Positions 22,591-58,017 of a stretch of 64,000 nt of DNA are shown one piece after another. The position numbers and the translations under genes are program-made. The DNA is taken from assembly GCA_000004985.1 (NCBI GenBank), contig GG738853.1. The stretch is one strand, 5' to 3'. The notes beneath the pieces are model-generated. The model saw only the letters and a list, made by a program, of their open reading frames with translations, ran no database searches and was not told where the DNA came from. This DNA comes from Naegleria gruberi. Lineage: Eukaryota. Every line of letters begins with the position of its first letter. The first letter of the stretch is position 1.

Positions 22591-25500
22591 ATGTCTGGTA
22601 AACCAAGATATTCCACACTTGTGGAAATGCTCGAGCATGCAACACAAGAAAGAACATCCTCTCTCATTTACAGACAATTAGATTACTCCAATGATGTGGT
22701 GGGGGAGGAGAAGAAACTTTTCTCTGACTTATTGAAACCTTCAAGTATCAAGGAGATTAGTTATTGTGATTTCTTAAAGAAAGTGAAATCTCTCTCCACT
22801 CTCATTCAAACTCAAGCCAAAAGTGGTGATAGAGCTTTGCTAATCTTTGAACCAGGTATTAACTTTATTGCTGCTTTCTTTGCTACCTTGTTTGCTGGTG
22901 TTATTGCTGTACCTGTCTATCCTCCAAAGAACAAGGAAGAATTCAACAAGTTGAGTAAGATTCTGGCCGATTCTAAACCAAGTTTATTTCTGTTATCCAA
23001 GCTCATTCATCAAAACTTTGAGCAACATGGCATTAACAAGTTTTTTACCAAGATTAATTCTCAACAACATGTCGAGAATCAGGTAATACAAGATGTACTC
23101 AGTGGTTGTCTGGAAACTTATGAAGGTTTTAGTCTTTTGATTTCAGACGCGGTTGACTACAGTGATAAACAATTGTATACATATTGGAAACACCCAAACA
23201 TCGACACAGATTCGGTTGCTTTCCTCCAATATACCTCTGGATCAACCAGTGATCCAAAAGGTGTCATTCTCACTCATAGAAACCTTCTCAACAATCTTCA
23301 TGTTATGAACTATGCCCTACGATACTCTAATCAGAAACATGTTGTGCTCTGGCTTCCTCCTTACCATGACATGGGTTTAATTGCTGGTTTACTTGAAATT
23401 GTCTATTCGAATTGTAGTGCTACTGTATTATCTCCAATCTCCTTCCTGGAAAATCCATTACGTTGGATGTGGGCAATCAATGAATATAGAGCCACATTGC
23501 TGGGTGCTCCTAATTTTGGTTATGATCTCTGTGTAAAGCACTTTCTAGCTCATGAGAAGGAATACAGAGAAAGTTTTAAATTATTCGATTTTAGCAGTTT
23601 GGAAATTGTGGCATGTGGTGCAGAACCTATCAGAGCAGAAACTATGGAAAGTTTCAGTACACTCTTCTCTGAATTTGGATTGAAAAAACAAGCCATGTAT
23701 CCATGTTATGGATTGGCTGAGAGTACTCTCTATGTCACTGGTGTAAACTATATGAAAGGTTTCGACTTTACCACAATTGACAACAAGAACCAATACATTA
23801 TCAAGAATGGAACAGTCGAACAAACACAAACTCATCAAAAATTCGTTAATTGTGGTGTCAACTATGATGAAAATCAATCCATTAAAATTGTCGATCCAGA
23901 ATCTTCTACAGAAATGGAGAATGGAAAGGTTGGTGAAGTTTGGTTGTCAAGTCCAAGTGTCGCTCAAGGTTATTGGGAGAAACCAGAACTTTCTCAAGAG
24001 GTTTTCCATGCACGAGTGGTTGGAGATGATAGGGAGTATCTCAGAAGTGGAGATTTGGGTTTCATGTTGAATGGAAACTTGTACATTACTGGTCGTCGTA
24101 AGGATGTCATTATTTTGAATGGTGTGAATTATTATCCTCAAGATGTAGAATTGGCATGTTCTAAATGTCATGCACAGATTAGAACTGGGTGTGTGGTGGC
24201 TGTTAATATTGCTGATCGTGATGGACAGGATCGATTGGTGATAATTGCTGAAACTAAAGTTGTTTCGAATAGTGAGACACAAGTATTGGAGAGTATTGTA
24301 CAATCCATACGATCTGCAATTGCCGAATCGATGGGAATTCCAATGTATAATGCCCTATCGACCATCCTTCTCATGACTAAAGGAGGCATTCTCAAGACCA
24401 CAAGTGGTAAACTGAGACGTCAACCAACTAAACAAGCATTTCTCAATAACAAACTTCCTCCAAAACTAATCGTTCACAGATGGGATCAGGAGAAACTCTC
24501 AGATAGCGCTTCTCAACCAAGTACTCCAACAGAGATTGGATTGGCTAAAATTTGGAAAGAATTAACAGGAATTGATCCATCACTTTCGAATAACTTTTTC
24601 CTTTTGGGAGGAAGCTCTATGAGTTTGATTCAGCTAAAATCTAGAATCCAACATGTTTTCAATGTAATTATAAGTTTGACTGATTTGGTAATGTCGCCAA
24701 CATTGCAATTGATGGCTAAATTGGTCGATCAACACAGCAATCAATGTAATACTAGCTCTGTACAAATTTCAAAGAGAGAAAGGACAAGTGACACTTTAGA
24801 ATTATCAAACTCACAAACGAGATTCTGGTTCTTACATCACTTGATCGATAATCCTGCCATTCACAATGTTTTTGCAGGTGTTCGTTTGAAAGGTGACTTG
24901 GATAAACAAGCTTTAGAAAATTCCATTACCAAACTTGTAGAACGTCATGAAAGTTTACGTACAAGCTTTCAAGAAACAGAGATGTCACCAATGCAACACA
25001 TTCATTCTGAAATTTCTCTCAAATTAAATTCAATTAGTTTGAAACATCTCACTAGTGAAGAAGAAAAGAATTTGGAATTGAACAAGTTTCTCTTTGATGA
25101 GGTGAACGCACCATTCAACTTGAATGAAGCTCCTCTTCTCAGAGCTAACTTGATCGAAATGTCAGAGTGTGATCATGTTTTGGCCATGACTTTCCATCAT
25201 ATCATAATCGATGGATGGTCCATGAATTTACTTGTTGAAGAGCTAGTTCAATACTATCTGGCTTTTAAGAATCATCAATCGCCAATTCTTCCACAAGTTC
25301 TTCAATATGGTGATTACACACTGTGGAGCAATCAACAACAATCAATGAATGAAACTCAATTAAAATATTGGGAAGAAAAACTCTCCAATTTACCAGAATC
25401 TATCAAATTGCCAACAGAAGGCGAAAACTTATCCAAATCATTTGATGGATCTCATTTCTGGTTTGCAATCCCAGAAACTCTCGTTAACTCCTTAAGAAAG

Positions 25501-28145: not shown

Positions 28146-28218
28146 CTCCCCCTGGTGGGCTCGAACCACCGACCTGCAGATTAACAGTCTGACGCTCTAC
28201 CGACTGAGCTAAGGGGGA
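28146..28218 (-). tRNA. tRNA-Asn(GUU), inverted duplicate
   Basis: Exact reverse complement of the tRNA at 22048-22120. Confidence 0.8.
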
Positions 28219-28299
28219 TACATTAATAAAAGAAAATATTCCTTATTCACAATTAAGGCTTGTTTTTCTTGTTAAGATTTTGGCAATCACCAGTACAAA

Positions 28300-28388
28300 A
28301 GGCGACTGAGGGAATTGAACCCTCGACCCTCAGTTATCTCAGCATTTCTGCCTACAAGACTGATGCACTGCCACTGTGCTAAGCCGCC
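28300..28388 (-). tRNA. tRNA-Thr(UGU) with 17-nt intron, inverted duplicate
   Basis: Exons identical to 21889-21977. Intron GGCAGAAATGCTGAGAT versus GGCAGCAATGCTTAGAT in the left copy. Confidence 0.7.
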
Positions 28389-28460
28389 TTACACTTTATC
28401 ATCAAATTTAAAATTTTCGAAAAACATGTGCAAGGACAAAGAATAATTCATTTGCAGAGT

Positions 28461-39530: not shown

Positions 39531-39603
39531 GCGGCAGTAGATCAGTGGTTAGATCGTCCGCCTCACACGCGGAAGGTCGCGGGTTCGAACCCCGTTTGCC
39601 GTA
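39531..39603 (+). tRNA. tRNA-Val(CAC)
   Basis: Acceptor GCGGCAG/TTGCCGT; D-arm GATC-AGTGGTTA-GATC; anticodon loop CTCACAC; T-arm GCGGG-TTCGAAC-CCCGT. T-run downstream. Confidence 0.8.
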
Positions 39604-39992: not shown

Positions 39993-40065
39993 TACGCAAG
40001 GCGGGGTTTGAACCCGCGACCTTCCGCGTGTGAGGCGGACGATCTAACCACTGATCTACTTGCGC
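39993..40065 (-). tRNA. tRNA-Val(CAC), convergent copy
   Basis: Same body as 39531-39603. The acceptor stem is changed to GCGCAAG/CTTGCGT with compensatory changes. T-stem 3' CCCGC and T-loop TTCAAAC. TTTT follows. Confidence 0.8.
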
Positions 40066-41727: not shown

Positions 41728-41816
41728 GGGTGGTTAGCTCAGCGGTAGAGCACCGGATTGCAAAGATATTTGCAGCAGACATCCGATGGTCACGTGTTCG
41801 ATCCACGTACCACCCT
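41728..41816 (+). tRNA. tRNA-Cys(GCA) with 17-nt intron
   Basis: Acceptor GGGTGGT/ACCACCC; D-arm GCTC-AGCGGTA-GAGC; anticodon stem CCGGA with loop TTGCAA|intron AGATATTTGCAGCAGAC|A; T-arm ACGTG-TTCGATC-CACGT. T-run 3'. Confidence 0.75.
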
Positions 41817-43679: not shown

Positions 43680-44428
43680 AACTCCTTCTATTAAATTATC
43701 GATGAGATGACTATTTTACATTCCATTCATTCGTTGTTATTGTTGTTTATCAAATTTCAGAAGAATGATTAGTGAAAACCTACATGAATATTAAACCATC
43801 ACTTAATCGACCATATAACTCATTTGAAGTTTCCAAATTATCAACACTAATTGGTTGCCACTCACCAATCGTTTCCTCCACTCGTTGTGGCATCTCTCTC
43901 AATCTCTTACTCATAACGGAATTAATAAACATGATAAAACACCTCTTCTCTCTCTTTGAAATCGTCGAGACCGAACCTGTTGCACTCACCGATTTAATTA
44001 GTGGCTCGACACTCCTGAGTGAGGCTCCTCTTAACTTGATAGCCTCTTCACCTTCGAGCGTTGTTGTTTGTTGCTGCGAATTGTCGTTATTAAGGTTGCG
44101 AGATGACAACATTTTTTCTACAAGTAATAATTTTTTTAAAAATTCCTTAAATCCTTAACGTCTCCCTTCAACAGCCCAAAGATTTGGCGGGAGAAATCTT
44201 GCTCAATAATGCACTGTAAAATAATGATCCCCTTAATGGTTCTATTCGAAAGGAAAATTAGTTTATTTAAGTATTTAAAAGTTTTCAAGTTTTTTATAAA
44301 ATGTTAAATTTTTGTATCTTTTAAAAAGAATTCATACTTTCAGTTTCAAAATACGAAATGAAGATAAACTTACTTAAAGAACATCAAGAAATTACAATTT
44401 ATTTAATGAAAAATCAAAATGTAAAAAA

Positions 44429-45658
44429 ATGCAAAGACAACAACAGAGAGCATCCTCATCACAAAATGTTTCTCAACATCAGCAATCTCTTGAACAACAA
44501 CAAAATTCTCAAGAAGAGGATGATTTAGAATCGGTCAGATTATCACAAGCTGACGAATTATCGCCACCATCATCACCCGAACCTGAAACTCCTTTTCAAA
44601 ATCGAAGAAGGAGAGAACGAGAACGTTCTTTATCATCTAATGATGAAGAAGAACAATCAGTAGTAGATGAACAAGACAATACTTCAGTAACTCCCAACAT
44701 AAATGCTCATCAAAGTCCCTATGTAACATCAAATGCTCGGAGGAGAGATTTAATGTACTCTAATCGATACTCTCCACAAACACCAGGACAAAAGAAGAAG
44801 GCTTTGGAAAATAAATTGAAAAGGGATTTTCCAGAAGACTTTAGAGAAATGAATAGAAGAGAGGAGGAACGAAAAAAGAAACGAGAATTTTGTCCAGATA
44901 GCTGTGGCTCGATTGCTGGATTTCAATTTACAAATCCTGGTTTACTCATGTTGGGACAGTCAGCACTACATAGATCGGGAGCAATCAGTTCATTGAGTAC
45001 GATTGATCCTGCCTTCCTGGCACTGCATAGTCCCGAGAAGAGAATTGAAATTTTGAATAGTGTGGTTGCAAAACCTCCTCCACTTCCTCCAAAGGAACCA
45101 AAAACAGAGGCCGATATACTGAGGGAGTTTCTTAAAAAGAAGAGAACTGAATTGGCAAAACAGGACAAGGTTCAACCTAGATTGATCATGGCAGATGATA
45201 CTATCGATCTGATTGTCATGTGTAGAGAATCAATGTGTATGGGACATGAACTAGTTGAGAAAATTAAGGAAAAACATCAACAGACGATTGTTAATTATGT
45301 ACGAGCATTTGTGAAAAAGAAACATCAACAGCATGAAACTGCAGATGATAATGTAAATAGCAACCATTTAGATTTGAATGTCAATTCCTCTCACTTGAAT
45401 GAAACGAGTCAATCAGCATGTTTGGAAAATAGTAACAACAATAACACATTGAATGAGATTTCCCAACTGAATCATTCTATTGCATCTTCAACATCTTCTC
45501 AAACTGTTGTTACAGAGCCAGTTACTCCTGCCAAACAAAGTGTTTCCTTAAAAACTCCAACAGCAAGTAATTCAAAGAAAACACCAGTTCAAAAAGAGGT
45601 TATCGAACTTGATTCTAGTGATTCTGATGATGATGATGGAATTATCCAAATTGATTAA
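44429..45658 (+). CDS. low-complexity Ser/Arg/Glu-rich, nuclear-type protein
   Basis: 409-aa ORF with Q-rich N-terminus, RRRERERS, SPxSP motifs and an acidic C-terminal SSDSDDDD tail. Confidence 0.45.
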   Translation: MQRQQQRASSSQNVSQHQQSLEQQQNSQEEDDLESVRLSQADELSPPSSPEPETPFQNRRRRERERSLSSNDEEEQSVVDEQDNTSVTPNINAHQSPYVTSNARRRDLMYSNRYSPQTPGQKKKALENKLKRDFPEDFREMNRREEERKKKREFCPDSCGSIAGFQFTNPGLLMLGQSALHRSGAISSLSTIDPAFLALHSPEKRIEILNSVVAKPPPLPPKEPKTEADILREFLKKKRTELAKQDKVQPRLIMADDTIDLIVMCRESMCMGHELVEKIKEKHQQTIVNYVRAFVKKKHQQHETADDNVNSNHLDLNVNSSHLNETSQSACLENSNNNNTLNEISQLNHSIASSTSSQTVVTEPVTPAKQSVSLKTPTASNSKKTPVQKEVIELDSSDSDDDDGIIQID

Positions 45659-45765
45659 CAGAATCAATATTTTATTAAATAATAACAATCTGATATCTTC
45701 TTAATAAGAACACCTCAATCATCAAATATTACTGATAACACCCTTCACATGTCAGCCATCACCTG

Positions 45766-48681
45766 TTGATCTTCCAAACCATCATAAAAAAAATGTTTAA
45801 AAAAGTCTTTGGAAATAATGGCAGTAAAAAACCAGAGCCAAACAACAATGTCATTGTTGAATCAGCCTCCTCCGACCAACCACCTCCATCATCACCAACC
45901 ACTCCCTCTGACGAACAACCAAGAAAACGAACACCCGTTGCGCCACAAATTCAAGAAGTGAGCGCCAAAGTAAATAATCAATATGTTCCCACCAAAAAAA
46001 ACACCGAAGAACAGTACAGTGAGAGTGATAAGGGAGTCTCTGAGAGAAATAAACAAGCATCGGATGTGGTTCGTGTTGAGAGAAATCAGGGTGATGAAGC
46101 GTTGAAGGCTGTTAGAGGATTGTCTGATGGTTTGGAAGATCAACAGGATGATGATTTGGATGGAAAGAAGAAGAAGAAAAAGAAGAAGGATAAAGAAAGT
46201 ATTGTTGTTAATACAACAGCTGGAAAGGGAAAGAAATCAACAATTTTGGGTGATTTGATGGGAATTGCTGCTAGAAAGGGATATCTGAGTAAGAGAGGTG
46301 GTTCTATCAAGACTTGGCACAAGAGATTTTTCATTGTTGTTGGTCATCGTCTCTATTATTACAAAGACGATAGTTCAAAGAATGAACCATTGGGTTCTGT
46401 TAAATGTAAAGGACCAGAAAGTGTTCAACCTGTTGCAGACACATCTCGTCCTAACTGTTTTAGAATTATCTCTGAAGAGAGAACATTATACTGTCAAGCT
46501 GAAAATGAAAATGACATGAATTCTTGGATGAATTTTTTGAAGGAACACACTTCAAAATTGAATTTACGTAAAGTGAAAGAACTTTCCAATCTTCAAGGAT
46601 ACATGACATTGTTGGATAATCAAACAAAGAAAAAGAAACGTGATGTTTATTGTTTGTGTATGGATGGTAAATTTTACATTTTGAATAATTTTGAGGATGT
46701 ATTACCGGATAGAATTGTAGAATTGGCTGGTGCCAGTGTAAGCAAAGTTAGTATTTCAGGTACATCAACAAATAATTTATTGGAAACACCTGCAACTCCT
46801 TCAAGTCCTAGAAAGATCAACAATACTGAAATTCAAGATTTTGCATTCCAAATCACAGAAAGTTTGCAAGCCGGATACATCCCAGAAGATGTTGCACCAG
46901 AAAAGGAAAAGTCTGGTAGATCTTCACGTTCCAGCTCTACTTTCCGTCAATCTAAAATGTTCAGTAGAAAATCAATGAAGGTCAATGATAGCAGTCAATC
47001 AGGAAGTGGACAAGGCGATACTACAGCTCGTTTGAGAAAGGGAACTCAATTTTTCCAAAACTTGATCACTAGTGTTGAAGGACTCAATCAAGTTACACTA
47101 ACATCAATTGATCCATTTTTGGCTGATGCTGAAATTTGGTGTGAAATGGTTCGTCACGAATCTGAATTGGCCTCAACCAGTTGGTATGTTCGTAACTCTC
47201 AAATGCGTGGTTGGATCAAGATTTTAATGAACAACGATGAAGTCAACAAGGCCATTCTTCAAGATAAGAAGAAACCAGAATCATTATATTGGATTGAAAG
47301 ATATGCCTGTCTTGTTCGTGGTACCTTGTTCTACTTTTCCGAAGAGAATTCTCCAACTCCAGATGGTAGTATTGTCCTCACTACAGGTTCTCGTCTCGTA
47401 ACCTCAGCTGTTCGTGAATTGAACTGTCCATATGCATTCAAGATTTCTTCACTTTCATCCAATTTTTATGTTTGCGTAAATTCGGATGATGAAAAGGATT
47501 GTTGGGTTGAAGAATTAAAGGAAGCAACCTACTCTCAAGCCAATCTCGACTATAACAAGTATGGTTGGTTGACCAAGCAAGGTGGTTCCTACAAGTCTTG
47601 GAAGGAACGTTTCTGTATCTTGAAGGGTACCAATTTGTACTATTTCTCTGATCCAAATGACTCTGAACCTAAGGGTAAAGTCAATCTTAAGGGTCAAATG
47701 ATTCGTCACCTTACTCCAGTCGAGGCCTACAATGAAGTTCAAAAGGATAACGTTATCAAGATTTACACTAGTCAACGTACTTGGTATTTCTTTGCAGATA
47801 CCATGCAAGAAGCTGTCGAATGGTCTATTGTATTGAGAAAGGCAGCCCTTCTCTATCGTGGTAGAACTTGGATTGTTGATGACAAGTTGGATGGCATGGA
47901 TGCAAAGAATTCCTTGAGATGTAAGAGTATTTCCCAAGCTGTTGCCAAAGCAGCAGAATTGGATCGTATCATTGTCTATTCTGGTGTATATTCTGAAACT
48001 GTAGTTGTAAACAAATCTGTAATTATAGAATGTGTAGGTGATGTGGTATTAAAGAAGGATTCTGGAGCTCCACTCATTGTGGATTGTATTGGTGCCGTAA
48101 AGGTCACTGGTATGGAATTAAGACAAGAAGGAGCTCCTAAAGAGCTCAGAGGTGACAAACATGCAGCTGAAGTTAAACGTGGTAACATTATGTTTGAACA
48201 TTGTCAAATTACCAGCAGAGATGGTAATGGTGTTGTCATTACCGAAGAAGGTGGTGTCACTATGAGCAAGTGTCGTGTATTCGACTGCAACCACTATGGC
48301 GTTTGGTTGAACGGAAGAGCTAGTGCCATTTTGGAAAATGTGGAAATTTGTGGATGTCAATGGGATGGTGTCATGCTCATGGCTAATACTGACTGTATCA
48401 TTCGTCAATCTGATATTTTCAACAATTCTTACAATGGTATTGCCGTCTCTTCAAAGGGTCGTCTCAATGTAGAAAATTGTAGAATAAGTGGAAACTTGTG
48501 GGATGGTATCTCTATCAATACTGACAAGGGTGCTGCCAGATTATTCGATAACTTTATTTTTGACAACCAAGGATTTGGTATTTATTATGCTAAAGATAAT
48601 GTCAGTGGTATCAACGTTGACAATGAAGTGTATTCCAATAAGAAGGGTCAAATCTACACTCTCAGTGGTAGACTTGAATAA
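45766..48681 (+). CDS. protein with three PH-like domains followed by right-handed parallel beta-helix (pectin-lyase-like) repeats
   Basis: 971-aa single-exon ORF. PH-like signatures KGYLSKRGGSIKTWHKRFFIV...SWMNFL, a central PH segment near 47150-47550, and KYGWLTKQGGSYKSWKERFCILKGTNLYYF...EWSIVL. The C-terminal 330 aa carry repeated ~22-aa G/N-rich beta-helix units. Confidence 0.6.
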   Translation: MIFQTIIKKMFKKVFGNNGSKKPEPNNNVIVESASSDQPPPSSPTTPSDEQPRKRTPVAPQIQEVSAKVNNQYVPTKKNTEEQYSESDKGVSERNKQASDVVRVERNQGDEALKAVRGLSDGLEDQQDDDLDGKKKKKKKKDKESIVVNTTAGKGKKSTILGDLMGIAARKGYLSKRGGSIKTWHKRFFIVVGHRLYYYKDDSSKNEPLGSVKCKGPESVQPVADTSRPNCFRIISEERTLYCQAENENDMNSWMNFLKEHTSKLNLRKVKELSNLQGYMTLLDNQTKKKKRDVYCLCMDGKFYILNNFEDVLPDRIVELAGASVSKVSISGTSTNNLLETPATPSSPRKINNTEIQDFAFQITESLQAGYIPEDVAPEKEKSGRSSRSSSTFRQSKMFSRKSMKVNDSSQSGSGQGDTTARLRKGTQFFQNLITSVEGLNQVTLTSIDPFLADAEIWCEMVRHESELASTSWYVRNSQMRGWIKILMNNDEVNKAILQDKKKPESLYWIERYACLVRGTLFYFSEENSPTPDGSIVLTTGSRLVTSAVRELNCPYAFKISSLSSNFYVCVNSDDEKDCWVEELKEATYSQANLDYNKYGWLTKQGGSYKSWKERFCILKGTNLYYFSDPNDSEPKGKVNLKGQMIRHLTPVEAYNEVQKDNVIKIYTSQRTWYFFADTMQEAVEWSIVLRKAALLYRGRTWIVDDKLDGMDAKNSLRCKSISQAVAKAAELDRIIVYSGVYSETVVVNKSVIIECVGDVVLKKDSGAPLIVDCIGAVKVTGMELRQEGAPKELRGDKHAAEVKRGNIMFEHCQITSRDGNGVVITEEGGVTMSKCRVFDCNHYGVWLNGRASAILENVEICGCQWDGVMLMANTDCIIRQSDIFNNSYNGIAVSSKGRLNVENCRISGNLWDGISINTDKGAARLFDNFIFDNQGFGIYYAKDNVSGINVDNEVYSNKKGQIYTLSGRLE

Positions 48682-48807
48682 ATTTAACAGCCCAAACATT
48701 TGCAAAAATCAAAAATTCAAAAATTCTTATTATGCAGATGTAAACGCAACAATAGAAAAGATTATTGAGGGATGTCTGTATTGCAGCTGAATGCCATATT
48801 TATTTTG

Positions 48808-50540
48808 TTACAAATAAAGGAAGGACAAGATGATCAAAACTAAAACAATTAAAACGTTTGGAAGACGAACCAATTGAGCATCATTGACATTTCTTGAAAT
48901 ATTAGCATCAGGAGTAGCAGTGGAATTTGTGTTGGAGTTTGAATTAGAATTGGAAGAAACTGCTGGTTTTGGTGAAGAAGTAACTGCGCTAGGTACTTCA
49001 ACCTTTAACATTTGAACTGAAACAGTTGATTCCTGATTGACTCCACTAATTGCTGAAATACTTCCCCAACATGAAGAAGATGGCCAAGTAAATACGAAAC
49101 TTTGTCCATTATTCAAATTTCCACTATCAATATTTGAAAGATTCCTACAAGCCAAATTCAAAAACAATCTAAACTGTCCTCCTCCAGTAGTAAGAGCTGT
49201 AACATTATACAATTGACCAGCAACTGTTTTAGCCCATGAAACTGGTGAATATCCATTTCCATTTGCATTATTCTGAACTGTTTTCACAGTTCTACTGGAA
49301 AAGATTACTGCTTGTCTCCATGTATCGAAATATCCAGCAGGTCCTCCAGAACTTACAGTCCAAAGACCTCTCATGGAAAGTAAATTTTGATTTCTATTAA
49401 AATCAATCACCTTATCCTCACCATTCAAATATCCTGAACAAGATTTGAGAGGTCTGAGAGCAGCTCTAATGAGTTGCAATTCATATGCTGCTTGATTACT
49501 CCAACCACCTGGATGCAATGTGTAATTACTGCCAATTTCAACGAAAATGCCATAAGGTGTACCAGTATTACGATCAGTGACATAACCTCCATAAGTTTTC
49601 AAAGTTTCTGCAACTTTTCTCAATTTTGGAATGGTAAGTTGAGCAGTGACATTGAAAGTGGAAGGAAGCATCAATAAACTACCTTCAGGAATAGTTCCAT
49701 AATTGCTCTGATAATCAGTATCAGATGCAGTGGCTGGCCAAACATATGGTGGATTATTAGACAAACCATTGTGAGTCATGGATACAGTCAATGCATGTCT
49801 ATATTGAGTATCGCCATCATCTACTTCATGTTTTCTAATCAATCCTGCAGAACTCACAACTCCTGTGGCTCTGGCTCCTTGATAGAATTGAGCTGGATTT
49901 CCCCATCCAGAACCATCGAGAGCTGTCCATGAATAGAGAGTAGTACACCAGGTGCCATTAATTTTGACCATTTGCCAGAATGAGTGAATAACATTTGAGA
50001 TTGGATCATAAATTTCACAGTGACCTATTTTCCAAAAATATCAAATTTTGACACACATGTCATTTTAAAAAACTAATTACATTGACAAGTATGCAAACAA
50101 ACTTACCATCACTTCCACTAGCTGGTAAAGTATTAGCTGGCCATCTTGGAATTGTAATATTTGGAGCAAATCCACCAATATCTGGCACGCCAATTCCCTT
50201 ACTAGATGAACCATAAACTGTGAGTGGAGAATCAGTTTTTGAGGCAACGAAAACTCCAGTAGAATAAATTCCTTCACCAACTGTTGGATAAAAGTTCATT
50301 GTTGATAGTGGAATAGTTTTGGTATCGTCTAAAACTGGGTTGACTGGACGACAATTCCAAGGAGAGCTTGCAGAGAATGGTCTGTAAATGCTTCCAAAGG
50401 GATAATCAGATTGGAGGCATGTTACATGTTGAGAAAACATGTCTGTTAAAAACAATGTCAATTGTCAAAGTGCATGAAAACTTACAAATTACTGACAGCA
50501 AAAGCATGACAGATAATTTAACTGTGAATAGGTTATTCAT
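48808..50540 (-). CDS. secreted or GPI-anchored surface protein, 3 exons (50540-50486, 50442-50107, 50024-48808)
   Basis: An 18-aa signal-peptide micro-exon MNNLFTVKLSVMLLLSVI. A 43-nt GTAAGT...AG intron, then a second exon. An 82-nt GTAAGT...AG intron, then a large exon. C-terminal Ser/Asn-rich linker and hydrophobic tail LPNVLIVLVLIILSFLYL. Confidence 0.5.
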
Positions 50541-51055: not shown

Positions 51056-52321
51056 ATGTTCAAACTGAAAGTACCAGTTTCGGTTTTGTTTTTGCTGTTG
51101 TGTGTTGTATGTTTGGGAGGAGATTTTGCTCATTCTACAACAAAAACTAAAGTTTCGTCATTATGGAAAGTTCCAAAATCTGTATCCGAAACTCAACAAA
51201 CTTTTATCAAATCTTTTAAAATAGTTAAGGAACGTCAATTAGTGAGCAAAGCATTTAAGAAATTGAATGGAATGGCTCACAAAATGAATCTTCATACCAA
51301 CAAACCACCCATCAAATCAGCACTTTCTAATAAGAAAGTAAATACGAAAGGAATCAAGAAGAAATTAGAAGGTCCTTTCTTTAAGGGTGCTCAATCTCAA
51401 TGGATGAAATATTCTTTTAGAAAAATTAAGAACAAACCGTTGAATTCTCTTCTCATTCCTGGAACTCATAATTCCTTTGCAAAATCGTTGAAAAGTGAAA
51501 AATCACCAAAAAAAGCAAAAATCAACAAAATTTTCAAAGGTTATCCGAAAAAATTGATTCGTTTGATACTTTCTCAATGGAAAGAAACACAAACGAATGG
51601 ACCAGTTGAACAATTGATGGATGGCGTTAGATATTTTGATTTGAAAATTTGTCAGGACTCTTCAGAATTTTCCAAAATTAGAAAATTGAAGATTTGTAAT
51701 TCACTTTATGCTGGAATTTTGGAAAAATCTTTACAAGGTTTGGCAAATTTTGTAAAATTTGTTGGAAAGAAGGAAGTTCTAATAATTAATTTTAGAGAAT
51801 TTACCTCAGTTGATGAAAAGAGTCATCAGTACTTGTTCAATACTTTACAATCCAAGTTTGGAAAGTTATTAGCAGATTCCAACAAACTTTCACCAAAATC
51901 CAAATTCAAAGATTTCATTCGTTTGAATCAGAGAGTGATTATCTTGTATGGAAACTCTGATACGGTATCCAATTCAAAGGGTTTATTATGGTCGAGTGAT
52001 GTAATTCGCTCACCATCTTTCAAAGTTCAAGATTCCATTTCACTTTATTCGAAAATCAAAGCTCAACTCGCAGAAAGATCTAAAACTGATGAAAAACTAT
52101 TCATCACTCCAGCATTTATCACTCCAAACATTCAAATGATAATCAAGGGATTACTATCTCAACCAACTTGTCTCCAACAACAATCCTCACAAGTCAACCC
52201 AACCATAGTCAACTGGATCAGTTCCAACAACTTGCCAATATCGAAAATGAACGTCATCTTGCTCAATCATGAAAGTAAACACCTCCTCTCTGCACTAATT
52301 GTAAAAAATCTGGAACACTAA
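51056..52321 (+). CDS. secreted PI-PLC X-domain (PLC-like phosphodiesterase) protein
   Basis: Signal peptide, then IPGTHNSF and GVRYFDLKI motifs characteristic of the phosphatidylinositol-specific phospholipase C X-box/TIM-barrel. Confidence 0.6.
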   Translation: MFKLKVPVSVLFLLLCVVCLGGDFAHSTTKTKVSSLWKVPKSVSETQQTFIKSFKIVKERQLVSKAFKKLNGMAHKMNLHTNKPPIKSALSNKKVNTKGIKKKLEGPFFKGAQSQWMKYSFRKIKNKPLNSLLIPGTHNSFAKSLKSEKSPKKAKINKIFKGYPKKLIRLILSQWKETQTNGPVEQLMDGVRYFDLKICQDSSEFSKIRKLKICNSLYAGILEKSLQGLANFVKFVGKKEVLIINFREFTSVDEKSHQYLFNTLQSKFGKLLADSNKLSPKSKFKDFIRLNQRVIILYGNSDTVSNSKGLLWSSDVIRSPSFKVQDSISLYSKIKAQLAERSKTDEKLFITPAFITPNIQMIIKGLLSQPTCLQQQSSQVNPTIVNWISSNNLPISKMNVILLNHESKHLLSALIVKNLEH

Positions 52322-53052: not shown

Positions 53053-54381
53053 ATGCATCCCTTTGAAGGTTACGCAAAATTATGTGGGCAAGATGTTGAA
53101 TATTACTTACAAAAGCTAAATGTCTCTCTCGGAAGAACACGGGTGCCTGATCCACAAGTTATAGATCCTAAATCTTTGGCAGAAGAACAGACAGTTGATG
53201 CTAATCAAAGTTTAAATTCCACATTATCTACTACAGGTCATTTACAACCTTCTATTGAAACACTTCAAAGAGTGCTCTGGGAACAAGATGTAGATATTCC
53301 TCTAGGTACCAACAAGAATATTTCACGTCTCCATGCCAAAATAATTTATAATGCTATAACAAAATTCTTTGAATTACACGTGATATCAAAGAATGGTGTA
53401 AAAGTTAATGGAATTTACTATCCTCCACAACCACACTCTCAACCAATCCCACTTCATAACGGTTATGAATTACAATTAGGTGATTGTTTCTTGACCTTTA
53501 TGCTTCCAATTAAAAAGATAACCCAAAGCGAAATGTATCAAATGGTAAACCTGAAAAAGAGAGATATGCAAAATGCAGATAGAGCTGACAGAGACAATTC
53601 TTCAACAAATGATCAAGATAGACAAGGAAATGATATGATGATGACTGACGAGAGTCACACAAGTACTATGAATGATGAAGTTTCTGATGCTCTTTCAAAA
53701 AACTTTCTTAGAGAAATTGAACCAATGGACGACCCCAATGGAGAGTATGGTTCTTTTTTTCTAAATGAAGGAAAGAAGAATATTTTTTTTAGGAACCTCG
53801 GAAATGGTCTAGCTGGGGGAACACCAATTAGTAGTGAACAAGCAAATGTACTTGCAAGATCATTGACAACAAGTATTGGCCCTTCTCTCACTGCAGCAGT
53901 AACACAAACTTTATCTGGAATTTATTTAGAAAATCACTCTGATTTTATCAAATCATTTCTTTCTAAATCAAATGCACCAAGTCCTCATACGGAAATGGTT
54001 CTGGAGTATCTTTACAACTCTCCTGATATTGAAAATGCAGAATCACCTGAGGCAGTTAGTATGTTAGCGCGATTAATGACAGATATGGATAATAATATCG
54101 GATCAAACTTTTCCAACATGTCCAAGAATACTAAAAAGCTGTTGCATATAGTACTGAATGCTGCTTTGGCAACAGAACAACAAGAGTTAGCCTCTCTACT
54201 TTTCAAGACAAAGCAAGAAAACGAAATTACTGTAAGAAATGGTATTGCTACTTTTGTGCTTGATTGGAACGAAAAGAAGCAGAAACAACAAGATATGGAA
54301 GCTGCTGTAAATACAAGTGCTACAACACCTCTTGTAGATCCACAAGCCTCCTCTCTTTCATCTCATCCAACAGTGAGATAG
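53053..54381 (+). CDS. FHA-domain protein
   Basis: N-terminal FHA signature: ...LGRTRV...ISRLHAKIIYNA...HVISKNGVKVNG. Ser/Thr-rich C-terminus. Confidence 0.55.
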   Translation: MHPFEGYAKLCGQDVEYYLQKLNVSLGRTRVPDPQVIDPKSLAEEQTVDANQSLNSTLSTTGHLQPSIETLQRVLWEQDVDIPLGTNKNISRLHAKIIYNAITKFFELHVISKNGVKVNGIYYPPQPHSQPIPLHNGYELQLGDCFLTFMLPIKKITQSEMYQMVNLKKRDMQNADRADRDNSSTNDQDRQGNDMMMTDESHTSTMNDEVSDALSKNFLREIEPMDDPNGEYGSFFLNEGKKNIFFRNLGNGLAGGTPISSEQANVLARSLTTSIGPSLTAAVTQTLSGIYLENHSDFIKSFLSKSNAPSPHTEMVLEYLYNSPDIENAESPEAVSMLARLMTDMDNNIGSNFSNMSKNTKKLLHIVLNAALATEQQELASLLFKTKQENEITVRNGIATFVLDWNEKKQKQQDMEAAVNTSATTPLVDPQASSLSSHPTVR

Positions 54382-54478
54382 TATCTTTTCATCACGAGTT
54401 AATCTTCCTTCAATTGATTCACAACCTCCACCAGCCAACAATTTTACTGCAATTACCTCATCTTCACAACCTCTACAA

Positions 54479-56674
54479 ATGGCCACCACAACATCATCAT
54501 TAACTTCTCTAATTCCTCCTCCAATATTATCATCCTCTCAACAACAACAAACACAATTGACGGATGTACCTCCATCATCGCAGAGTACAACACAATTACC
54601 ACCCGATGATGATTTGGATGCTTTGGACGAATTTGATGAATTGATGGCTTTCGTCAATGCTCCTATGGATACAAATTCTGAACAATGGCGTTTATTGAAT
54701 CAAAATTCAAATGTTCCACCAGTGACAACAACAACTTCCTCTATTCCTCCTAATGATACAACAGTAAACAGTAGTGCTACTACATCAAATGTAACTGCAC
54801 CAACTACTGAAAAGAAGAAAAAGACTACAAAAAAGAAGAAGGATGAAAAGGAAACCACCACTAAAAAGAAGGAAACAAAGAAGAAGAAGGATGATAAAAA
54901 AGAGGACAAGAAGGAAGATAAAAAGGAAGAAAAGAAAGAAGAAAAGGAAAAGAAGAAGAAAAAGAAGAAGGAGGAGCCATCTACTCCAAAGGATACTGTC
55001 AAACAAGAAGAGCCTGCTGTTTCCACACCAAAAGATCCCAATCTTAAGAAACCTGATATTTCATATTCTACAATGATTGCTCATGCACTCATGTCAGCAG
55101 CTAATAACATGATGCCTCTCAAATCAATTTATTCTTGGATTTCCACAACTTATCCATTCTACGATCTTGCAGAGACTGGTTGGAAGAGTAGTGTGAGACA
55201 TAATTTGAGCACAAATTCTAAATATTTCCGAAGAGTATCACCTGAAGAATGGAGACAATTAACTGGAGAAGAGAAAAAGTCAAAATCTAAAAAACAAGGC
55301 TCCTCAGATAAGAAGATGGCATTCTCTGTCTATGCACTTGTGACTGAGCATTGTGATGAAGTTTTGGGAACAAAGAAAGCCAAATCAGACAAGAAGGCAT
55401 CCTCTTCTACTTCTTCTTTAACAACGCTTAGTAATGCTACTACAGCACCAGTTAGTTCATCATCTACATTACCTGCCAATAGTACTCTTTCTTCTTCTAC
55501 TAATGCAACCACTGACCAAACAGCAATAACCTCAGAAGTGAAAGAAGTTAAGGAAAAAGAAACCAAGAAGAAGAAATCATCCACCAGTAGTGCAACAAAG
55601 AAGAGAAGTAGAAAAAAGTCCGAATCTACAGACTTGGATTTAAATGATGGCTTGTTGAACTTTGATGAAATTGCACCATCAATGAGTTTGGATAAACCAG
55701 AAAAGAAAAAGAAGAAGAAGACTTCTAAAAAATCAGAAACTCCTACAGCTAGTACAACTCCAGCTGCTGAATCTTCAACACCTGTGACTCAAACCAATAA
55801 CAACAATAATACCAATGTAACTACTCCCCAATTGTCACATTCCAGTTCCAATCAAAACTTCCAACACAGTACTCCAACTAATCAAATTTCTATCACCCAA
55901 AATATTATGCCAAATACATCTCAACCATTGGCTCCAAAACAACCATTCCCTTTGTCAAATCAAATTCCTAATCAAATTCCACCAAACCAAATGCCAAATC
56001 AAATGCCAAACCAAATGCCAAATCAGATGCCAAATCAAATACCTAATCAAATCCCTCGTCAAAGTACTAATAACTTGTTGGAAATGTTTGTTCAGAATGG
56101 AATGCTAAATGCCCAAGAACCTTCTTTTCTTAAAATTTTATTGGATGGAAATGGAGATTCATCAGCCAACAATCCATTATCAGCGCTCATGGGTCAAGGA
56201 GGTCAGAATATGAATCCAAACCAAGGACTCAATACAGCACCACTTGGTAATATGGTTGATTCACAGGGAAAGCAAATTGACCTTATTAATTTACTTTCAA
56301 TGGTAACTGGAATGCCTCAACAACAAAACATGTCTCAATCTGGTATGTCTCAACCACCAATGCACCAAAACTTTTTAGATCCAAATAACAGACTTGTTAC
56401 ACAAGGAAGACCTCCTAATTGGCCACCTGGTGCAGGCTTACCAAATCAACTTCAAGGAGGAAGGCCTTCTATGGGATCAGTTGTTGGTATGCAAAATCCT
56501 GGTCAATTCCCTGTACAAAATCCAAATATGAATCCATTAGGTCATCCAGGATTTAATCAATTCCCATTTCCCATGATGAACTACTCTCAAACACTTCTCA
56601 ACTTTGATCCATCATCAATACTGCAGCAACAAGGTAATGGTGGTATTCCTCCCAATAATAACAATAATAAATAG
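54479..56674 (+). CDS. forkhead (FOX) DNA-binding-domain transcription factor with K/E-rich and Q/N/P-rich low-complexity regions
   Basis: Forkhead domain KPDISYSTMIAHALMSAANNMMPLKSIYSWISTTYPFYDLAETGWKSSVRHNLSTNSKYFRRV. The same frame is open upstream to 54377. Confidence 0.7.
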   Translation: MATTTSSLTSLIPPPILSSSQQQQTQLTDVPPSSQSTTQLPPDDDLDALDEFDELMAFVNAPMDTNSEQWRLLNQNSNVPPVTTTTSSIPPNDTTVNSSATTSNVTAPTTEKKKKTTKKKKDEKETTTKKKETKKKKDDKKEDKKEDKKEEKKEEKEKKKKKKKEEPSTPKDTVKQEEPAVSTPKDPNLKKPDISYSTMIAHALMSAANNMMPLKSIYSWISTTYPFYDLAETGWKSSVRHNLSTNSKYFRRVSPEEWRQLTGEEKKSKSKKQGSSDKKMAFSVYALVTEHCDEVLGTKKAKSDKKASSSTSSLTTLSNATTAPVSSSSTLPANSTLSSSTNATTDQTAITSEVKEVKEKETKKKKSSTSSATKKRSRKKSESTDLDLNDGLLNFDEIAPSMSLDKPEKKKKKKTSKKSETPTASTTPAAESSTPVTQTNNNNNTNVTTPQLSHSSSNQNFQHSTPTNQISITQNIMPNTSQPLAPKQPFPLSNQIPNQIPPNQMPNQMPNQMPNQMPNQIPNQIPRQSTNNLLEMFVQNGMLNAQEPSFLKILLDGNGDSSANNPLSALMGQGGQNMNPNQGLNTAPLGNMVDSQGKQIDLINLLSMVTGMPQQQNMSQSGMSQPPMHQNFLDPNNRLVTQGRPPNWPPGAGLPNQLQGGRPSMGSVVGMQNPGQFPVQNPNMNPLGHPGFNQFPFPMMNYSQTLLNFDPSSILQQQGNGGIPPNNNNNK

Positions 56675-56867: not shown

Positions 56868-58017
56868 ATGAGCAACAATAGCAACAATAATTCAGATGAT
56901 GCTTCAATCAGGAAGCAACTGTGGGAAGGTTCAATACCAAGTGTAATCAACATTAAATCTGAACACATAACGTCTTTTCAACAGCCTTTCCCATATTTTG
57001 TAAGTGTTTTCATTCCGATCATTAATTGTTTGGGGCAATAATTATCTAGACAATGATTCCTAGACATTCATATTTATCTTTACTGATCGATAAAGTCAAA
57101 TCGCATTATTCTGAATTTTCAGGATTTGATAGTGATCAATTATGGTTTAGTTTCAATACTATTGCTATGCAATGGCACGTACCAGCTGGAGTTTTATATG
57201 ATTTGATGTATATCTTGGATCCGAATAGTATGTATTTGATTGGAAATAATAATAACAATAATTATATAACTAATAATTTGATGATGGTGAAATTATAATA
57301 TTTAAATAATATAACAACAATGATATGTTGTGCATTTACTAAATGTTGATTGATCAAATTATATTAATATAATTTTAATAATATTTAACAAAACATGAAA
57401 ACTAAATAGCACTTAAATTACCTTGGTCATTAACAGCAAATTTTGGAGCTTTTCCAGCAGATACTGTCATTCGTTGTAGTAATGAAGAGGATGCTCAGTG
57501 GAATTATCTCAACAATATTAAAGAGTGCATGTATATTCGTTTCAACTCTACATCAGCCATGATGACTTTTAGTAATGAGGATCAAAAGGAATTATGGTCA
57601 GCTGTAAAGAGTCAAAACGAACAAGTATTTTGCAAACTTTTCGAAAAGATTAAACTTGGAGCTAAAATTGCTTCCATTGATGATATGGTTTATGCCATTA
57701 GAATTTACACACCACTCAAAAAGGATTCTAATAGCTCTGTAAATTTAACAGATGATTCAAAGAAGAAGGATGTATTAAAATATAAGAAGAATATGATATG
57801 TTTAAAGAGAGACCAAGCTAAACAACTTGATTTACAAACATTCTTAAACAATCATGTTATTCCTCAATTAACCAAAGGTGGATATTTTGGAGATTGTGAA
57901 ACCAAGATTGACCGAGTTGTCATTCAAGGTGTCGAACCTTCCAAGGAAACTGAAATGTTATGGCTCTTTGAAAATTGTGCTCATCCAGATGGTTTCTTAT
58001 ACATGTGTTGTAAATAA
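56868..58017 (+). CDS. ATG5: autophagy protein ATG5, 3 exons (56868-56999, 57050-57227, 57410-58017)
   Basis: Spliced product aligns with ATG5 along its length: KQLWEGSIP, PRHSYLSLLIDKVK, WHVPAGVLYDL, LPWSLTANFGAFP, QKELW, VVIQGVEPSKETEMLW. Introns GTAAGT...AG are 50 nt and GTATGT...AG 182 nt. Confidence 0.8.

What the first reader, a model, noticed from the sequence alone, without database searches (positions are those of the whole stretch)
53053..56674. FHA-domain ORF and forkhead-domain ORF are adjacent and co-oriented: possibly one FoxK/Fhl1-like gene split by an unannotated intron or frameshift
FHA followed by forkhead is the architecture of fungal Fhl1/Fkh1-2 and metazoan FOXK. Here the FHA ORF stops at 54381. 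The forkhead ORF frame is open from 54377 and has its first ATG at 54479. I could not find a canonical GT...AG intron that joins the frames. The only good acceptor (the pyrimidine tract ending ...caacag at 54373) lands on a TGA codon. The pair is therefore either two genes, a gene with a non-canonical or alternative splice, or a sequencing frameshift.
Basis: partly seen in the sequence, partly recalled or inferred. Interest (0 to 1): 0.5.

Follow-up and report, generated by a model that had tools for sequence, protein, structure and literature searches.

The report
One FHA-forkhead gene, broken by frameshift
The two adjacent reading frames are the two halves of a single Naegleria gruberi FoxK/Fkh-like transcription-factor gene, which is one uninterrupted reading frame in three related amoebae. 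The break here is most likely a one-base error or very recent mutation in the reference sequence, not an intron, so the finding is ordinary.

Summary
ORF1 (53053-54381) has an FHA domain and ORF2 (54479-56674) has a forkhead domain. The ORF2 frame is open from 54377, two bases before ORF1's TAG stop.

The window is Naegleria gruberi NEG-M. The orthologues in N. lovaniensis, N. fowleri and Willaertia magna are each one uninterrupted, intronless ORF carrying both domains. ATG5 lies downstream in both Naegleria loci, as it does here.

Codon usage switches from frame 1 to frame 2 at 54374-54381 with no non-coding gap. The 102 nt before ORF2's ATG score like average coding sequence.

All 44 frame-preserving GT-AG pairs differ from the nine intron-like sequences I identified in this window. 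Those nine have GTAAGT or GTATGT donors, 16-32% GC and no coding signal.

A published BLAST table places the forkhead of the public model at residue 601. That fits only a fused model with a 196-nt "intron" (54186-54381), which would delete conserved codons. This looks like a gene-predictor workaround.

Verdict: one gene with a net +1 break. I put a draft-sequence error at about 55% and a real recent or allelic frameshift at about 25%. It is already known and of low interest. The only wider point is that it is a syntenic, non-contaminant FHA-forkhead gene outside opisthokonts.

The parts
53053..54378 (+). 5' part of the coding sequence (frame 1, 442 codons). It holds the FHA domain and a conserved middle block.
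   Evidence: ORF list. It is 58-63% identical to the N-terminal 410-428 residues of the N. lovaniensis and N. fowleri FHA-forkhead proteins. Codon-usage score is positive in frame 1 up to about 54320.
53284..53481 (+). FHA domain core (ORF1 residues 78-143). The first FHA strand with Gly27-Arg28 lies upstream at 53131-53136, separated by an insertion of about 45 residues.
   Evidence: Pfam PF00498, E 9.9e-07, profile positions 7-67 of 67. G27 R28, S91 R92 L93 H94 and N114 G115 are invariant in the three Naegleria sequences. The AlphaFold model of this region was too poor to use (pLDDT 36.5).
53734..54252 (+). Conserved middle block (ORF1 residues about 228-400). It matches no Pfam family.
   Evidence: Long invariant runs in alignment A1, for example GEYGSFFLN, FFRNLGNGLAGG, IGPSLTAAVTQTLSGIYLEN and VLNAALATEQQELASLL. 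It is partly conserved in Willaertia. Pfam finds only FHA in ORF1.
54374..54381 (+). The frame break, sequence TGAGATAG. It holds the frame-2 stop TGA (54374-76) and the frame-1 stop TAG (54379-81). Deleting any one of these 8 bases gives a single 1206-codon ORF.
   Evidence: Three-frame translation and single-base deletion test. Coding score leaves frame 1 and enters frame 2 here. The stretch contains no homopolymer.
54377..54478 (+). Linker codons in frame 2, upstream of ORF2's first ATG. This is coding sequence, not a spacer or 5' UTR.
   Evidence: Codon log-likelihood is 11.1. Real coding 102-nt windows average 11.0 +/- 5.2. Only 1.7% of non-ORF windows reach this value. A 14-nt repeat at 54418 and 54463 is spaced 45 nt apart, which is in frame.
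54479..56674 (+). 3' part of the coding sequence (frame 2). The ATG at 54479 is an internal Met.
   Evidence: MATTTSSLTSLIPPP aligns to the internal N. lovaniensis linker MTATTTTTVTSAPPPP (score 55 against a shuffle mean of 31.7, p about 0.003). DALDEFDELM, the forkhead domain and the C-terminal TLLNFDPSSILQ are conserved with the orthologues.
55046..55249 (+). Forkhead (winged-helix) DNA-binding domain. Recognition helix is WKSSVRHNLS. Wing 1 is replaced by an insert of about 30 residues that continues downstream to about 55390.
   Evidence: Pfam PF00250, E 1.2e-21, profile positions 1-68 of 88. PDB sequence hits are FOXN3, FOXK1 and FOXK2 at E about 1e-13. AlphaFold model has pLDDT 72.6, with the core at 88-90. 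Foldseek top hit is FOXK1 8bzm; target-normalised TM is 0.77-0.87 across the top forkhead hits.
54186..54381 (+). 196-nt 'intron' (GTTAGC...GATAG) that the public gene model appears to use. I judge it a prediction artefact.
   Evidence: This is the only single-intron model from ATG 53053 that puts the K of KPDISY at residue 601. Residue 601 is the subject start reported for EP00686_Naegleria_gruberi_P012610 with probes beginning KPPYSY/KPPFSY. It would remove LASLLFKTKQENEITVRNGIATF..., which is conserved in the orthologues. GC is 0.39 and the coding score is +0.38 per codon.
54373..54583 (+). Best-looking alternative GT-AG intron candidate (GTGAGA...TCGCAG, 211 nt, phase 0). Rejected.
   Evidence: It keeps the frame. 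However, the donor is not GTAAGT or GTATGT, GC is 0.39, the coding score is +0.24 per codon, and the interior is open in frame 2 throughout. It contains the segment homologous to the orthologues' linker.

Best explanation
This is one gene. It is the Naegleria gruberi orthologue of the intronless FHA-forkhead (FoxK/Fkh-like) transcription-factor gene of N. lovaniensis, N. fowleri and Willaertia magna.

In this reference sequence its reading frame is interrupted by a net +1 shift confined to 54374-54381. That means one base too many, or two too few. Nothing is spliced out. Coding sequence runs straight through in frame 1 up to the break and in frame 2 from it.

The most likely cause is a single-base error in the draft reference. 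The intact gene would then encode about 1206 residues. From N- to C-terminus these are an FHA domain, a conserved middle block, a low-complexity linker, a forkhead DNA-binding domain and a Q/N-rich tail.

The protein presumably binds forkhead-type DNA sites through helix 3 and docks phosphothreonine-bearing partners through the FHA domain, as FOXK, Fkh1/2 and Fhl1 do.

Shown: one gene, the position of the break and the domain content. Inferred: that the break is an error, and the protein's function.
For: (1) Orthologues.
- The only strong hits to the joined query are N. lovaniensis C9374_004745 (E 8e-211) and an N. fowleri protein (E 9.5e-207). Both carry PF00498 and PF00250.
- Their genes are uninterrupted ORFs: L001 10001-13735 and L002 1005-5381.
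- The Willaertia magna gene is also uninterrupted (L003 5001-7859).
- These proteins align along both window ORFs.
- ATG5 follows the gene in both Naegleria loci, as in the window.

(2) FHA relatives. Nine of the ten best non-Naegleria relatives of ORF1's FHA region also carry a forkhead domain.

(3) Coding signal.
- It switches frame at the break with no gap.
- 54377-54478 scores 11.1, equal to the coding mean of 11.0. Only 1.7% of non-ORF windows reach this.
- The segment at ORF2's 'start' is homologous to an internal linker segment of N. lovaniensis (p about 0.003).

(4) Introns.
- The nine intron-like sequences I identified in the window have GTAAGT (7) or GTATGT (2) donors, 16-32% GC and best-frame scores of -0.06 to -0.65 per codon.
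- Only the two ATG5 ones are independently checked, by a complete Pfam match to the spliced protein.
- Every bridging GT-AG candidate scored (9 of the 44) has 37-44% GC and +0.24 to +0.39 per codon, against a coding mean of 0.32.
- Only 54059 (GTATGT) carries a consensus donor, and it would excise the conserved block.

(5) Error is plausible.
- Both halves are otherwise intact over 3.6 kb.
- N. lovaniensis shows that one-base breaks split models of this gene. A 5-A run truncates its model, and the real C-terminus continues in the next frame.
- From my own knowledge, the N. gruberi reference is a roughly 8x Sanger draft.

(6) Public model. It evidently fuses the two parts already, with the forkhead at residue 601.
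Against: - There is no independent read or transcript evidence for this species. Neither ORF, none of the seven single-base-repaired proteins and not the 211-nt-spliced protein is in the 15-billion-protein collection as an exact sequence. N. gruberi contigs were not retrievable.
- The break is not in a homopolymer or any other error-prone context. A genuine mutation, or a heterozygous null allele in a long-cultured and probably polyploid strain, is therefore a serious alternative.
- The break lies in the least conserved part of the protein, so homology cannot show which base is extra.
- GTGAGA sits exactly at the break and has an in-frame CAG acceptor 211 nt downstream.
Confidence: 0.55

Rival explanations
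1. The frameshift is real. The sequenced NEG-M strain, or the assembled haplotype, carries a very recent one-base insertion (or 3n+1 indel) in this gene. The locus would then yield an FHA-only protein of 442 residues. A forkhead protein would arise, at best, from the internal ATG at 54479. An intact allele may exist on another haplotype.
For: - The break is in a non-repetitive 8-nt stretch with no homopolymer.
- It is still one ancestral gene.
- The sequence on both sides is still fully coding-like, as expected for a recent event.
- A metagenomic Naegleria only 98.4-99.4% identical to the window shows that close strains with many indels exist: 14 gap openings in 4.9 kb.
Against: - A gene kept as one ORF in three other genera or species is presumably under selection.
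- There is no second lesion anywhere in 3.6 kb.
- By my own estimate, a fixed disabling mutation in a given conserved gene is rarer a priori than an indel error in a draft assembly.
Confidence: 0.25
2. A spliceosomal intron restores the frame. The candidates are 54373-54583 (GTGAGA...CAG, 211 nt), the 196-nt 54186-54381 apparently used by the public model, or a non-canonical intron.
For: - 44 GT-AG pairs keep the frame open.
- 54373 is a fair GTGAG donor placed exactly at the break. It has a pyrimidine-rich CAG acceptor and a TTGAC branch-like site.
- The public model seems to contain an intron here.
- The genome does have introns.
Against: - The orthologues have no intron in this gene.
- All nine intron-like sequences I identified in the window have GTAAGT or GTATGT donors, 16-32% GC and negative coding scores.
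- The candidates scored have 37-44% GC and coding-level scores, and the only one with a consensus donor (54059, GTATGT) would excise the conserved block.
- 54186-54381 would delete residues conserved across Naegleria.
- 54373-54583 is open in frame 2 throughout and contains a segment homologous to the N. lovaniensis linker.
Confidence: 0.1
3. These are two independent, functional genes produced by an older gene fission: an FHA protein and a separate forkhead protein starting at ATG 54479.
For: - Each ORF is complete, with an ATG and a stop.
- Spacers of 74-217 nt between co-oriented genes are normal in this window.
- ORF2's ATG has an A at position -3.
Against: - The 97-nt 'spacer' has coding-level codon usage in ORF2's frame. 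That frame opens exactly where ORF1 closes.
- Its upstream 60 nt is 42% GC, against 17-38% for most 5' flanks in the window.
- No AATAAA, ATTAAA or TGTAA signal follows ORF1's stop. Such signals follow 17 of the 26 ORFs examined.
- The ATG aligns to an internal Met of the orthologue.
- All three relatives have one ORF.
Confidence: 0.05
4. The break is real and is bypassed during translation by programmed +1 ribosomal frameshifting at AGA-UAG, giving the full-length protein from two frames.
For: - A stop codon sits in the A site directly at the frame overlap, which is the geometry of antizyme, RF2 and Euplotes +1 sites (general knowledge).
- Frame 2 is open from two bases before the stop.
Against: - The P-site codon AGA cannot re-pair in the +1 frame (GAU).
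- The downstream RNA has no unusual structure: MFE -4 kcal/mol, z -0.52.
- The orthologues need no frameshift.
- To my knowledge, no such recoding has been reported in Naegleria.
Confidence: 0.02

Closest known systems
Metazoan FOXK1/FOXK2 and fungal Fkh1/Fkh2/Fhl1 (FHA-forkhead transcription factors)
   Same: - The FHA domain is N-terminal to a forkhead domain on one polypeptide. This holds in the orthologues and in the repaired gene.
- The FHA signature residues GR, SxxH and NG are present.
- The recognition helix is ...WKSSVRHNLS....
- Among solved structures the forkhead is closest to FOXN3, FOXK1 and FOXK2 by sequence, and to FOXK1 by fold.
- The best non-heterolobosean relatives of the FHA part are FHA-forkhead proteins of Pigoraptor, Ichthyophonus and Wickerhamomyces.
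   Different: - The host is a heterolobosean (Discoba), not an opisthokont.
- An insert of about 45 residues lies between the first FHA strand and the rest of the domain.
- A conserved block of about 170 residues with no known family, plus a long K/E-rich linker, separates the two domains.
- Wing 1 (the GKGxxW region) is replaced by an insert of about 30 residues. Pfam covers only positions 1-68 of 88.
- Orthology to any one Fox class was not established.
Orthologues: N. lovaniensis C9374_004745, N. fowleri CAG4717496.1, Willaertia magna KAL9650008.1
   Same: - Same domain order, same conserved blocks and same C-terminal motif.
- 58-63% identity in the N-terminal 410 residues for the Naegleria proteins.
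- ATG5 is the downstream neighbour in both Naegleria species.
   Different: - They are uninterrupted ORFs, whereas the window copy has the +1 break.
- The linker around the break is not alignable except for one short T/S/P-rich segment.
- The N. lovaniensis model has its own one-base break near the 3' end.
Public N. gruberi model EukProt EP00686_P012610 (= EFC47795 / XP_002680539 by numbering offset)
   Same: - It is the same locus and the same protein.
- It is the only N. gruberi Fox hit in the two EukProt-wide FoxJ1 DBD BLAST sheets (X. laevis and S. mediterranea probes) of Coyle et al. 2023 (PMC10530576, File S2).
- Its forkhead starts at residue 601, so about 410 residues of ORF1 must precede it.
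   Different: - The coordinate fits a 1141-residue model that splices out 54186-54381.
- My reading is that no intron exists and that about 65 conserved-region codons are wrongly removed.
- I could not retrieve the model's sequence, so this is an inference.

Membership tests
FHA-forkhead transcription factors (FOXK / Fkh1-2 / Fhl1 type) | Forkhead winged-helix DNA-binding domain | tested here: met
   Pfam PF00250, E 1.2e-21, 77 bits against a cut-off of 27. 46 PDB forkhead chains match at E <= 1e-3. AlphaFold model has pLDDT 72.6 and shows H1-S1-H2-H3-S2...S3. All Foldseek top hits are forkhead domains, led by FOXK1 8bzm, with target-normalised TM 0.77-0.87.
FHA-forkhead transcription factors (FOXK / Fkh1-2 / Fhl1 type) | FHA domain on the same polypeptide, N-terminal to the forkhead domain | tested here: inconclusive
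   As written, the window has a stop and a frame change between the two domains. The feature is met in the three orthologues and in any single-base repair of the window.
FHA-forkhead transcription factors (FOXK / Fkh1-2 / Fhl1 type) | FHA phosphothreonine-binding signature (Gly-Arg, Ser-x-x-His, Asn-Gly) | tested here: met
   G27-R28, S91-R92-L93-H94 and N114-G115 are present and invariant in the three Naegleria sequences. Pfam FHA scores above its cut-off. This is a sequence-level test only, because the structural model failed (pLDDT 36.5).
FHA-forkhead transcription factors (FOXK / Fkh1-2 / Fhl1 type) | Canonical recognition helix (xSxRHNLS) for base contacts | tested here: met
   WKSSVRHNLSTNSKYF is invariant in the Naegleria sequences, and SSIRHNLS is present in Willaertia.
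FHA-forkhead transcription factors (FOXK / Fkh1-2 / Fhl1 type) | Canonical wing 1 (GKGxxW hairpin) | tested here: not met
   The Pfam match stops at profile position 68 of 88. The model shows an extra helix and a disordered K-rich loop (residues 82-107 of the modelled segment) between S2 and S3.
FHA-forkhead transcription factors (FOXK / Fkh1-2 / Fhl1 type) | Phylogenetic placement inside the FoxK or Fkh clade | not tested
   Only best-hit evidence is available. The FHA part's nearest non-heterolobosean relatives are FHA-forkhead proteins. The forkhead part is equally close to FOXN3, FOXK1/2 and FOXM1. No tree was built.
FHA-forkhead transcription factors (FOXK / Fkh1-2 / Fhl1 type) | Sequence-specific DNA binding and phosphopeptide binding | not testable with these tools
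   This needs protein-binding microarray or EMSA assays and phosphopeptide pull-downs.
Spliceosomal intron of N. gruberi | Consensus donor GTAAGT or GTATGT | tested here: not met
   All nine intron-like sequences I identified in the window have GTAAGT or GTATGT. Two of them are validated by a complete Pfam ATG5 match. The candidates that spare conserved codons have GTGAGA, GTTAGC, GTATTG or GTGCTA.
Spliceosomal intron of N. gruberi | AT-rich, non-coding interior | tested here: not met
   The intron-like sequences have GC 0.16-0.32 and best-frame scores of -0.06 to -0.65 per codon. The candidates have GC 0.37-0.44 and +0.24 to +0.39, against a coding mean of 0.32.
Spliceosomal intron of N. gruberi | Removed from mature mRNA | not testable with these tools
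   No transcript data for this species could be reached.
Programmed +1 ribosomal frameshift site | P-site codon able to re-pair in the +1 frame, a stimulatory context, and conservation | tested here: not met
   AGA|UAG shifts to GAU, so no re-pairing is possible. Downstream RNA has z -0.52. The orthologues are in frame.

The most novel reading that the evidence does not exclude
The extra base is real, and the cell still makes the full-length FHA-forkhead protein by recoding: a programmed +1 ribosomal frameshift at AGA-UAG, or some non-canonical RNA-level repair. This would be the first recoding event described in a heterolobosean nuclear gene.
Probability: 0.02. Interest if true: 0.7.

Novelty: already known. 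Interest (0 to 1): 0.2.

Why it matters
Mostly this is a curation point. The N. gruberi reference seems to carry a one-base break in its only Fox hit in the published FoxJ1-probe survey. The public model appears to hide the break with a fake 196-nt intron that deletes about 65 codons, part of them conserved. Anyone using this protein for phylogeny, expression constructs or antibodies would get a wrong sequence.

There is also a small wider point. Fox factors are described as nearly restricted to opisthokonts, and heterolobosean hits have been put down to horizontal transfer, convergence or contamination (PMC10530576).
- Here the gene sits in native, syntenic context next to ATG5 in three Naegleria species, and it is also present in Willaertia. 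Contamination is therefore excluded, and the gene predates the split of those genera.
- It has the FoxK/Fkh-type FHA-forkhead architecture. That argues for common descent with, or transfer from, the opisthokont family rather than convergence.

Tried and rejected
- **Exact look-ups.** ORF1 and ORF2 are not on record in the contig index. ORF1, ORF2, seven single-base-repaired proteins and the 211-nt-spliced protein are not in the protein collection.
- **N. gruberi's own contig** could not be fetched through a neighbouring gene.
- **Homologue searches.** Two of the three word-indexed searches returned nothing, not even the N. lovaniensis orthologue. The index is evidently patchy, so these negatives carry no weight.
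- **JGI metagenomes.** An exact-pattern scan across the junction found nothing. A protein-guided scan also found no relatives.
- **ERR1078381.** This ENA/Logan metagenome holds a Naegleria 98.4-99.4% identical to the window, but only contigs for 44058-48913 could be reached.
- **PDB.** A sequence search with the FHA region gave no hit.
- **FHA structure.** The AlphaFold model was unusable (pLDDT 36.5).
- **Linker homology.** For the 34 residues upstream of the ATG it was not significant (p 0.22 and 0.58).
- **Poly(A)-like signals and start-codon context** discriminate only weakly.
- **Reassigned stop codons.** Frame 1 hits TAA and TGA soon after the TAG, so I rejected this.
- **Short introns from the 54373 donor.** Lengths of 26 and 62 nt give the wrong frame, so I rejected these.
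- **Literature.** No paper describes this Naegleria gene beyond one supplementary BLAST table.

Full report
**What is in the sequence**

The finding's coordinates are right.
- ORF1 runs from ATG 53053 to TAG 54379-54381 (442 aa).
- ORF2 runs from ATG 54479 to the stop ending at 56674 (731 aa).
- The ORF2 frame is open from 54377, immediately after an in-frame TGA at 54374-54376.
- The two open frames therefore overlap by only two bases.
- Upstream of the break, frame 2 is full of stops. Downstream of it, frame 1 is full of stops.

Pfam places an FHA domain in ORF1 (E 9.9e-07, above the curated cut-off). It places a forkhead domain in the ORF2 frame (E 1.2e-21).

The window has 32-38% GC. Five of its long ORFs are exact matches to Naegleria gruberi GenBank proteins, for example EFC47784, EFC47793 and EFC47796, on a 695,587-bp scaffold. 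The window is therefore the N. gruberi NEG-M reference.

**One gene or two**

I joined ORF1 to the frame-2 translation and searched with the result. It matched two proteins very strongly: N. lovaniensis C9374_004745 (1244 aa) and an N. fowleri protein (1458 aa). Each carries both FHA and forkhead.

I fetched the DNA of the relatives.
- The N. lovaniensis gene is one uninterrupted ORF (L001 10001-13735).
- So is the N. fowleri gene (L002 1005-5381).
- So is the Willaertia magna gene (L003 5001-7859; KAL9650008.1).
- In both Naegleria loci ATG5 is the next gene downstream, as in the window, where ATG5 lies at 56868-58017.

The relatives align with ORF1 and with ORF2 along their whole lengths. 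The alignment includes a conserved middle block, the motif DALDEFDELM, the forkhead domain and the C-terminal TLLNFDP motif.

I also ran an exhaustive HMMER search of ORF1 alone against 1.84 billion representative proteins. Among the ten best non-Naegleria hits, nine also have a forkhead domain. They include Willaertia, Pigoraptor, Ichthyophonus and Wickerhamomyces.

ORF1's FHA domain is therefore the kind that lives on forkhead proteins. The two ORFs are the two halves of one ancestral gene.

**What the break is**

I trained a codon-usage log-likelihood on 15 long ORFs elsewhere in the window.
- Frame 1 scores as coding up to about 54320-54370.
- Frame 2 scores as coding from 54385 onward.
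- No non-coding interval lies between them.
- The 102 nt of frame 2 that precede ORF2's ATG score 11.1. Real coding windows average 11.0 +/- 5.2. Only 1.7% of windows outside long ORFs reach this value.
- The peptide at ORF2's supposed start (MATTTSSLTSLIPPP) matches an internal linker segment of N. lovaniensis (MTATTTTTVTSAPPPP). It does so better than 99.7% of shuffles.
- Deleting any single base from 54374 to 54381 produces one 1206-codon ORF.

**Introns**

I found 44 such pairs.

I identified nine intron-like sequences in this window, each flanked by strong coding signal.
- Two of them are validated, because the spliced ATG5 product gives complete Pfam ATG5 domains.
- All nine begin GTAAGT (7) or GTATGT (2).
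- They have 16-32% GC.
- Their best-frame codon scores are -0.06 to -0.65 per codon.

The nine bridging candidates I scored have 37-44% GC and coding-level scores of +0.24 to +0.39 per codon, against a coding mean of 0.32. Their donors are GTGAGA, GTTAGC, GTATTG, GTGCTA and the like. The only ones with GTATGT or GTAAGA donors would excise the conserved block. The orthologues have no intron at all.

**Public annotation**

EukProt numbers track GenBank EFC numbers with a constant offset of 35185. EP00686_Naegleria_gruberi_P012610 is therefore EFC47795, the plus-strand model just before the gene at 58339.

In Coyle et al. 2023 (PMC10530576, File S2) that protein is the only N. gruberi Fox hit in the two EukProt-wide FoxJ1 DBD probe sheets. 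Probes that begin KPPYSY or KPPFSY align from their residue 1 to its residue 601.

In ORF2 alone that lysine would be about residue 191. It falls at residue 601 only in a model that starts at 53053 and removes exactly 196 nt. The single frame-preserving GT-AG pair of that length is 54186-54381, whose acceptor is the AG of ORF1's TAG stop.

The public model therefore already fuses the halves, though I infer this and have not seen the model. It appears to do so by cutting out 65 codons, including LASLLFKTKQENEITVRNGIATF, which is conserved across Naegleria. That is the typical way a gene predictor steps over a frameshift.

**Error or mutation**

The tools could not reach any independent read or transcript of this species.

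These points favour an error.
- The gene is conserved as one ORF in three relatives.
- Both halves are otherwise flawless.
- From my own knowledge, the reference is a draft Sanger assembly.
- The N. lovaniensis model of this same gene is visibly truncated at a run of five A's. The true C-terminus continues in the next frame and is called as a separate 137-aa gene.

One point favours a real event. The 8-nt stretch has no homopolymer.

My probabilities are as follows.

| Explanation | Probability |
|---|---|
| Reference error | about 55% |
| Real recent or allelic frameshift | about 25% |
| Intron | about 10% |
| Two old genes | about 5% |
| Programmed +1 frameshift | about 2% |

For the programmed frameshift, AGA cannot re-pair in the +1 frame, the downstream RNA has z -0.52, and the orthologues are in frame.

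**What the protein is**

- The FHA signature residues are present (G27-R28, S91-x-x-H94, N114-G115).
- The recognition helix WKSSVRHNLS is present.
- An AlphaFold model of the forkhead region has pLDDT 72.6, with the core at about 90. It has the H1-S1-H2-H3-S2 layout.
- Its best structural matches are all forkhead domains, led by FOXK1.
- By sequence the closest solved structures are FOXN3, FOXK1 and FOXK2.
- Wing 1 is replaced by an insert of about 30 residues, so Pfam covers only profile positions 1-68 of 88.
- The FHA model was too poor to use.

The protein most likely works like FOXK or Fkh. The forkhead domain reads DNA and the FHA domain recruits phosphorylated partners. This is inferred from domain content only.

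**Novelty**

The gene, its domain pair and its presence in Heterolobosea are already in databases. One paper notes that four of eight heterolobosean taxa have Fox hits and attributes them to transfer, convergence or contamination.

This analysis adds three small points.
- The hits are native and syntenic.
- They have the FHA-forkhead architecture.
- The N. gruberi reference and its gene model at this locus are probably flawed.

Noticed in passing
L001 13668-14250 (N. lovaniensis PYSW02000022.1): The N. lovaniensis orthologue's annotated model ends early. After ATG GAA CAA AAA (a run of five A's) the N. fowleri-like C-terminus (...PLQQPSPQQQQPTPPLTQ...LLNFDPTSLLQ) continues in the next frame to 14250. 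One more A in the run would restore it. The 137-aa 'gene' called at 13837-14250 is that C-terminus. This is probably a homopolymer error in that assembly.
   Followed up: partly
window 21888-22120 (+) and 28146-28389 (-): A tRNA-Thr(TGT) plus tRNA-Asn(GTT) pair and its mirror-image copy flank the 1809-aa ORF at 22591-28020. The Thr genes are 89-91 nt long, so they probably contain an intron.
   Followed up: no
window 39531-39603 (+), 39993-40065 (-), 41728-41816 (+): Two divergently oriented tRNA-Val(CAC) genes lie here. A further 89-nt tRNA is found by Rfam but missed by ARAGORN.
   Followed up: no
window 56868-58017: ATG5 gene with two introns (57000-57049 GTAAGT...CTAG; 57228-57409 GTATGT...ATAG). 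The spliced 305-aa product gives complete Pfam UblA, HBR and UblB domains. GenBank numbering runs from EFC47795 (forkhead model) straight to EFC47796 (58339-60660) and leaves no number for it, so it may be missing from the public protein set.
   Followed up: partly
window 53734-54252 (ORF1 residues about 228-400): This block is strongly conserved in the three Naegleria species and partly in Willaertia, for example FFRNLGNGLAGG, IGPSLTAAVTQTLSGIYLEN and VLNAALATEQQELASLL. It matches no Pfam family. It seems to be a lineage-specific domain of these forkhead proteins.
   Followed up: no
window 55250-55390: Wing 1 of the forkhead domain is replaced by an insert of about 30 residues. In the AlphaFold model the insert forms a short helix and a disordered K-rich loop, followed by strand S3 (MAFSVYAL) and a C-terminal helix. 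Willaertia has an even longer insert at the same place.
   Followed up: partly
L004 and L005 (ENA ERZ929261 / Logan ERR1078381, PRJEB11402) against window 44058-48913: A metagenome contains a Naegleria 98.4-99.4% identical in DNA to the window, with 47 mismatches and 14 gap openings in 4.9 kb. This is a very close strain of N. gruberi and could serve as an independent check of this locus.
   Followed up: partly
window 54418-54431 and 54463-54476: A 14-nt direct repeat (TTCACAACCTCCAC / TTCACAACCTCTAC) is spaced 45 nt apart, which is in frame. It encodes SQPPP and SQPLQ in the linker upstream of ORF2's ATG.
   Followed up: no
window 51056-52321: This 421-aa ORF with a signal-peptide-like start has no Pfam match. 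Its exact sequence is not in the protein collection, although its neighbours are, so the public model here probably differs from the plain ORF.
   Followed up: no
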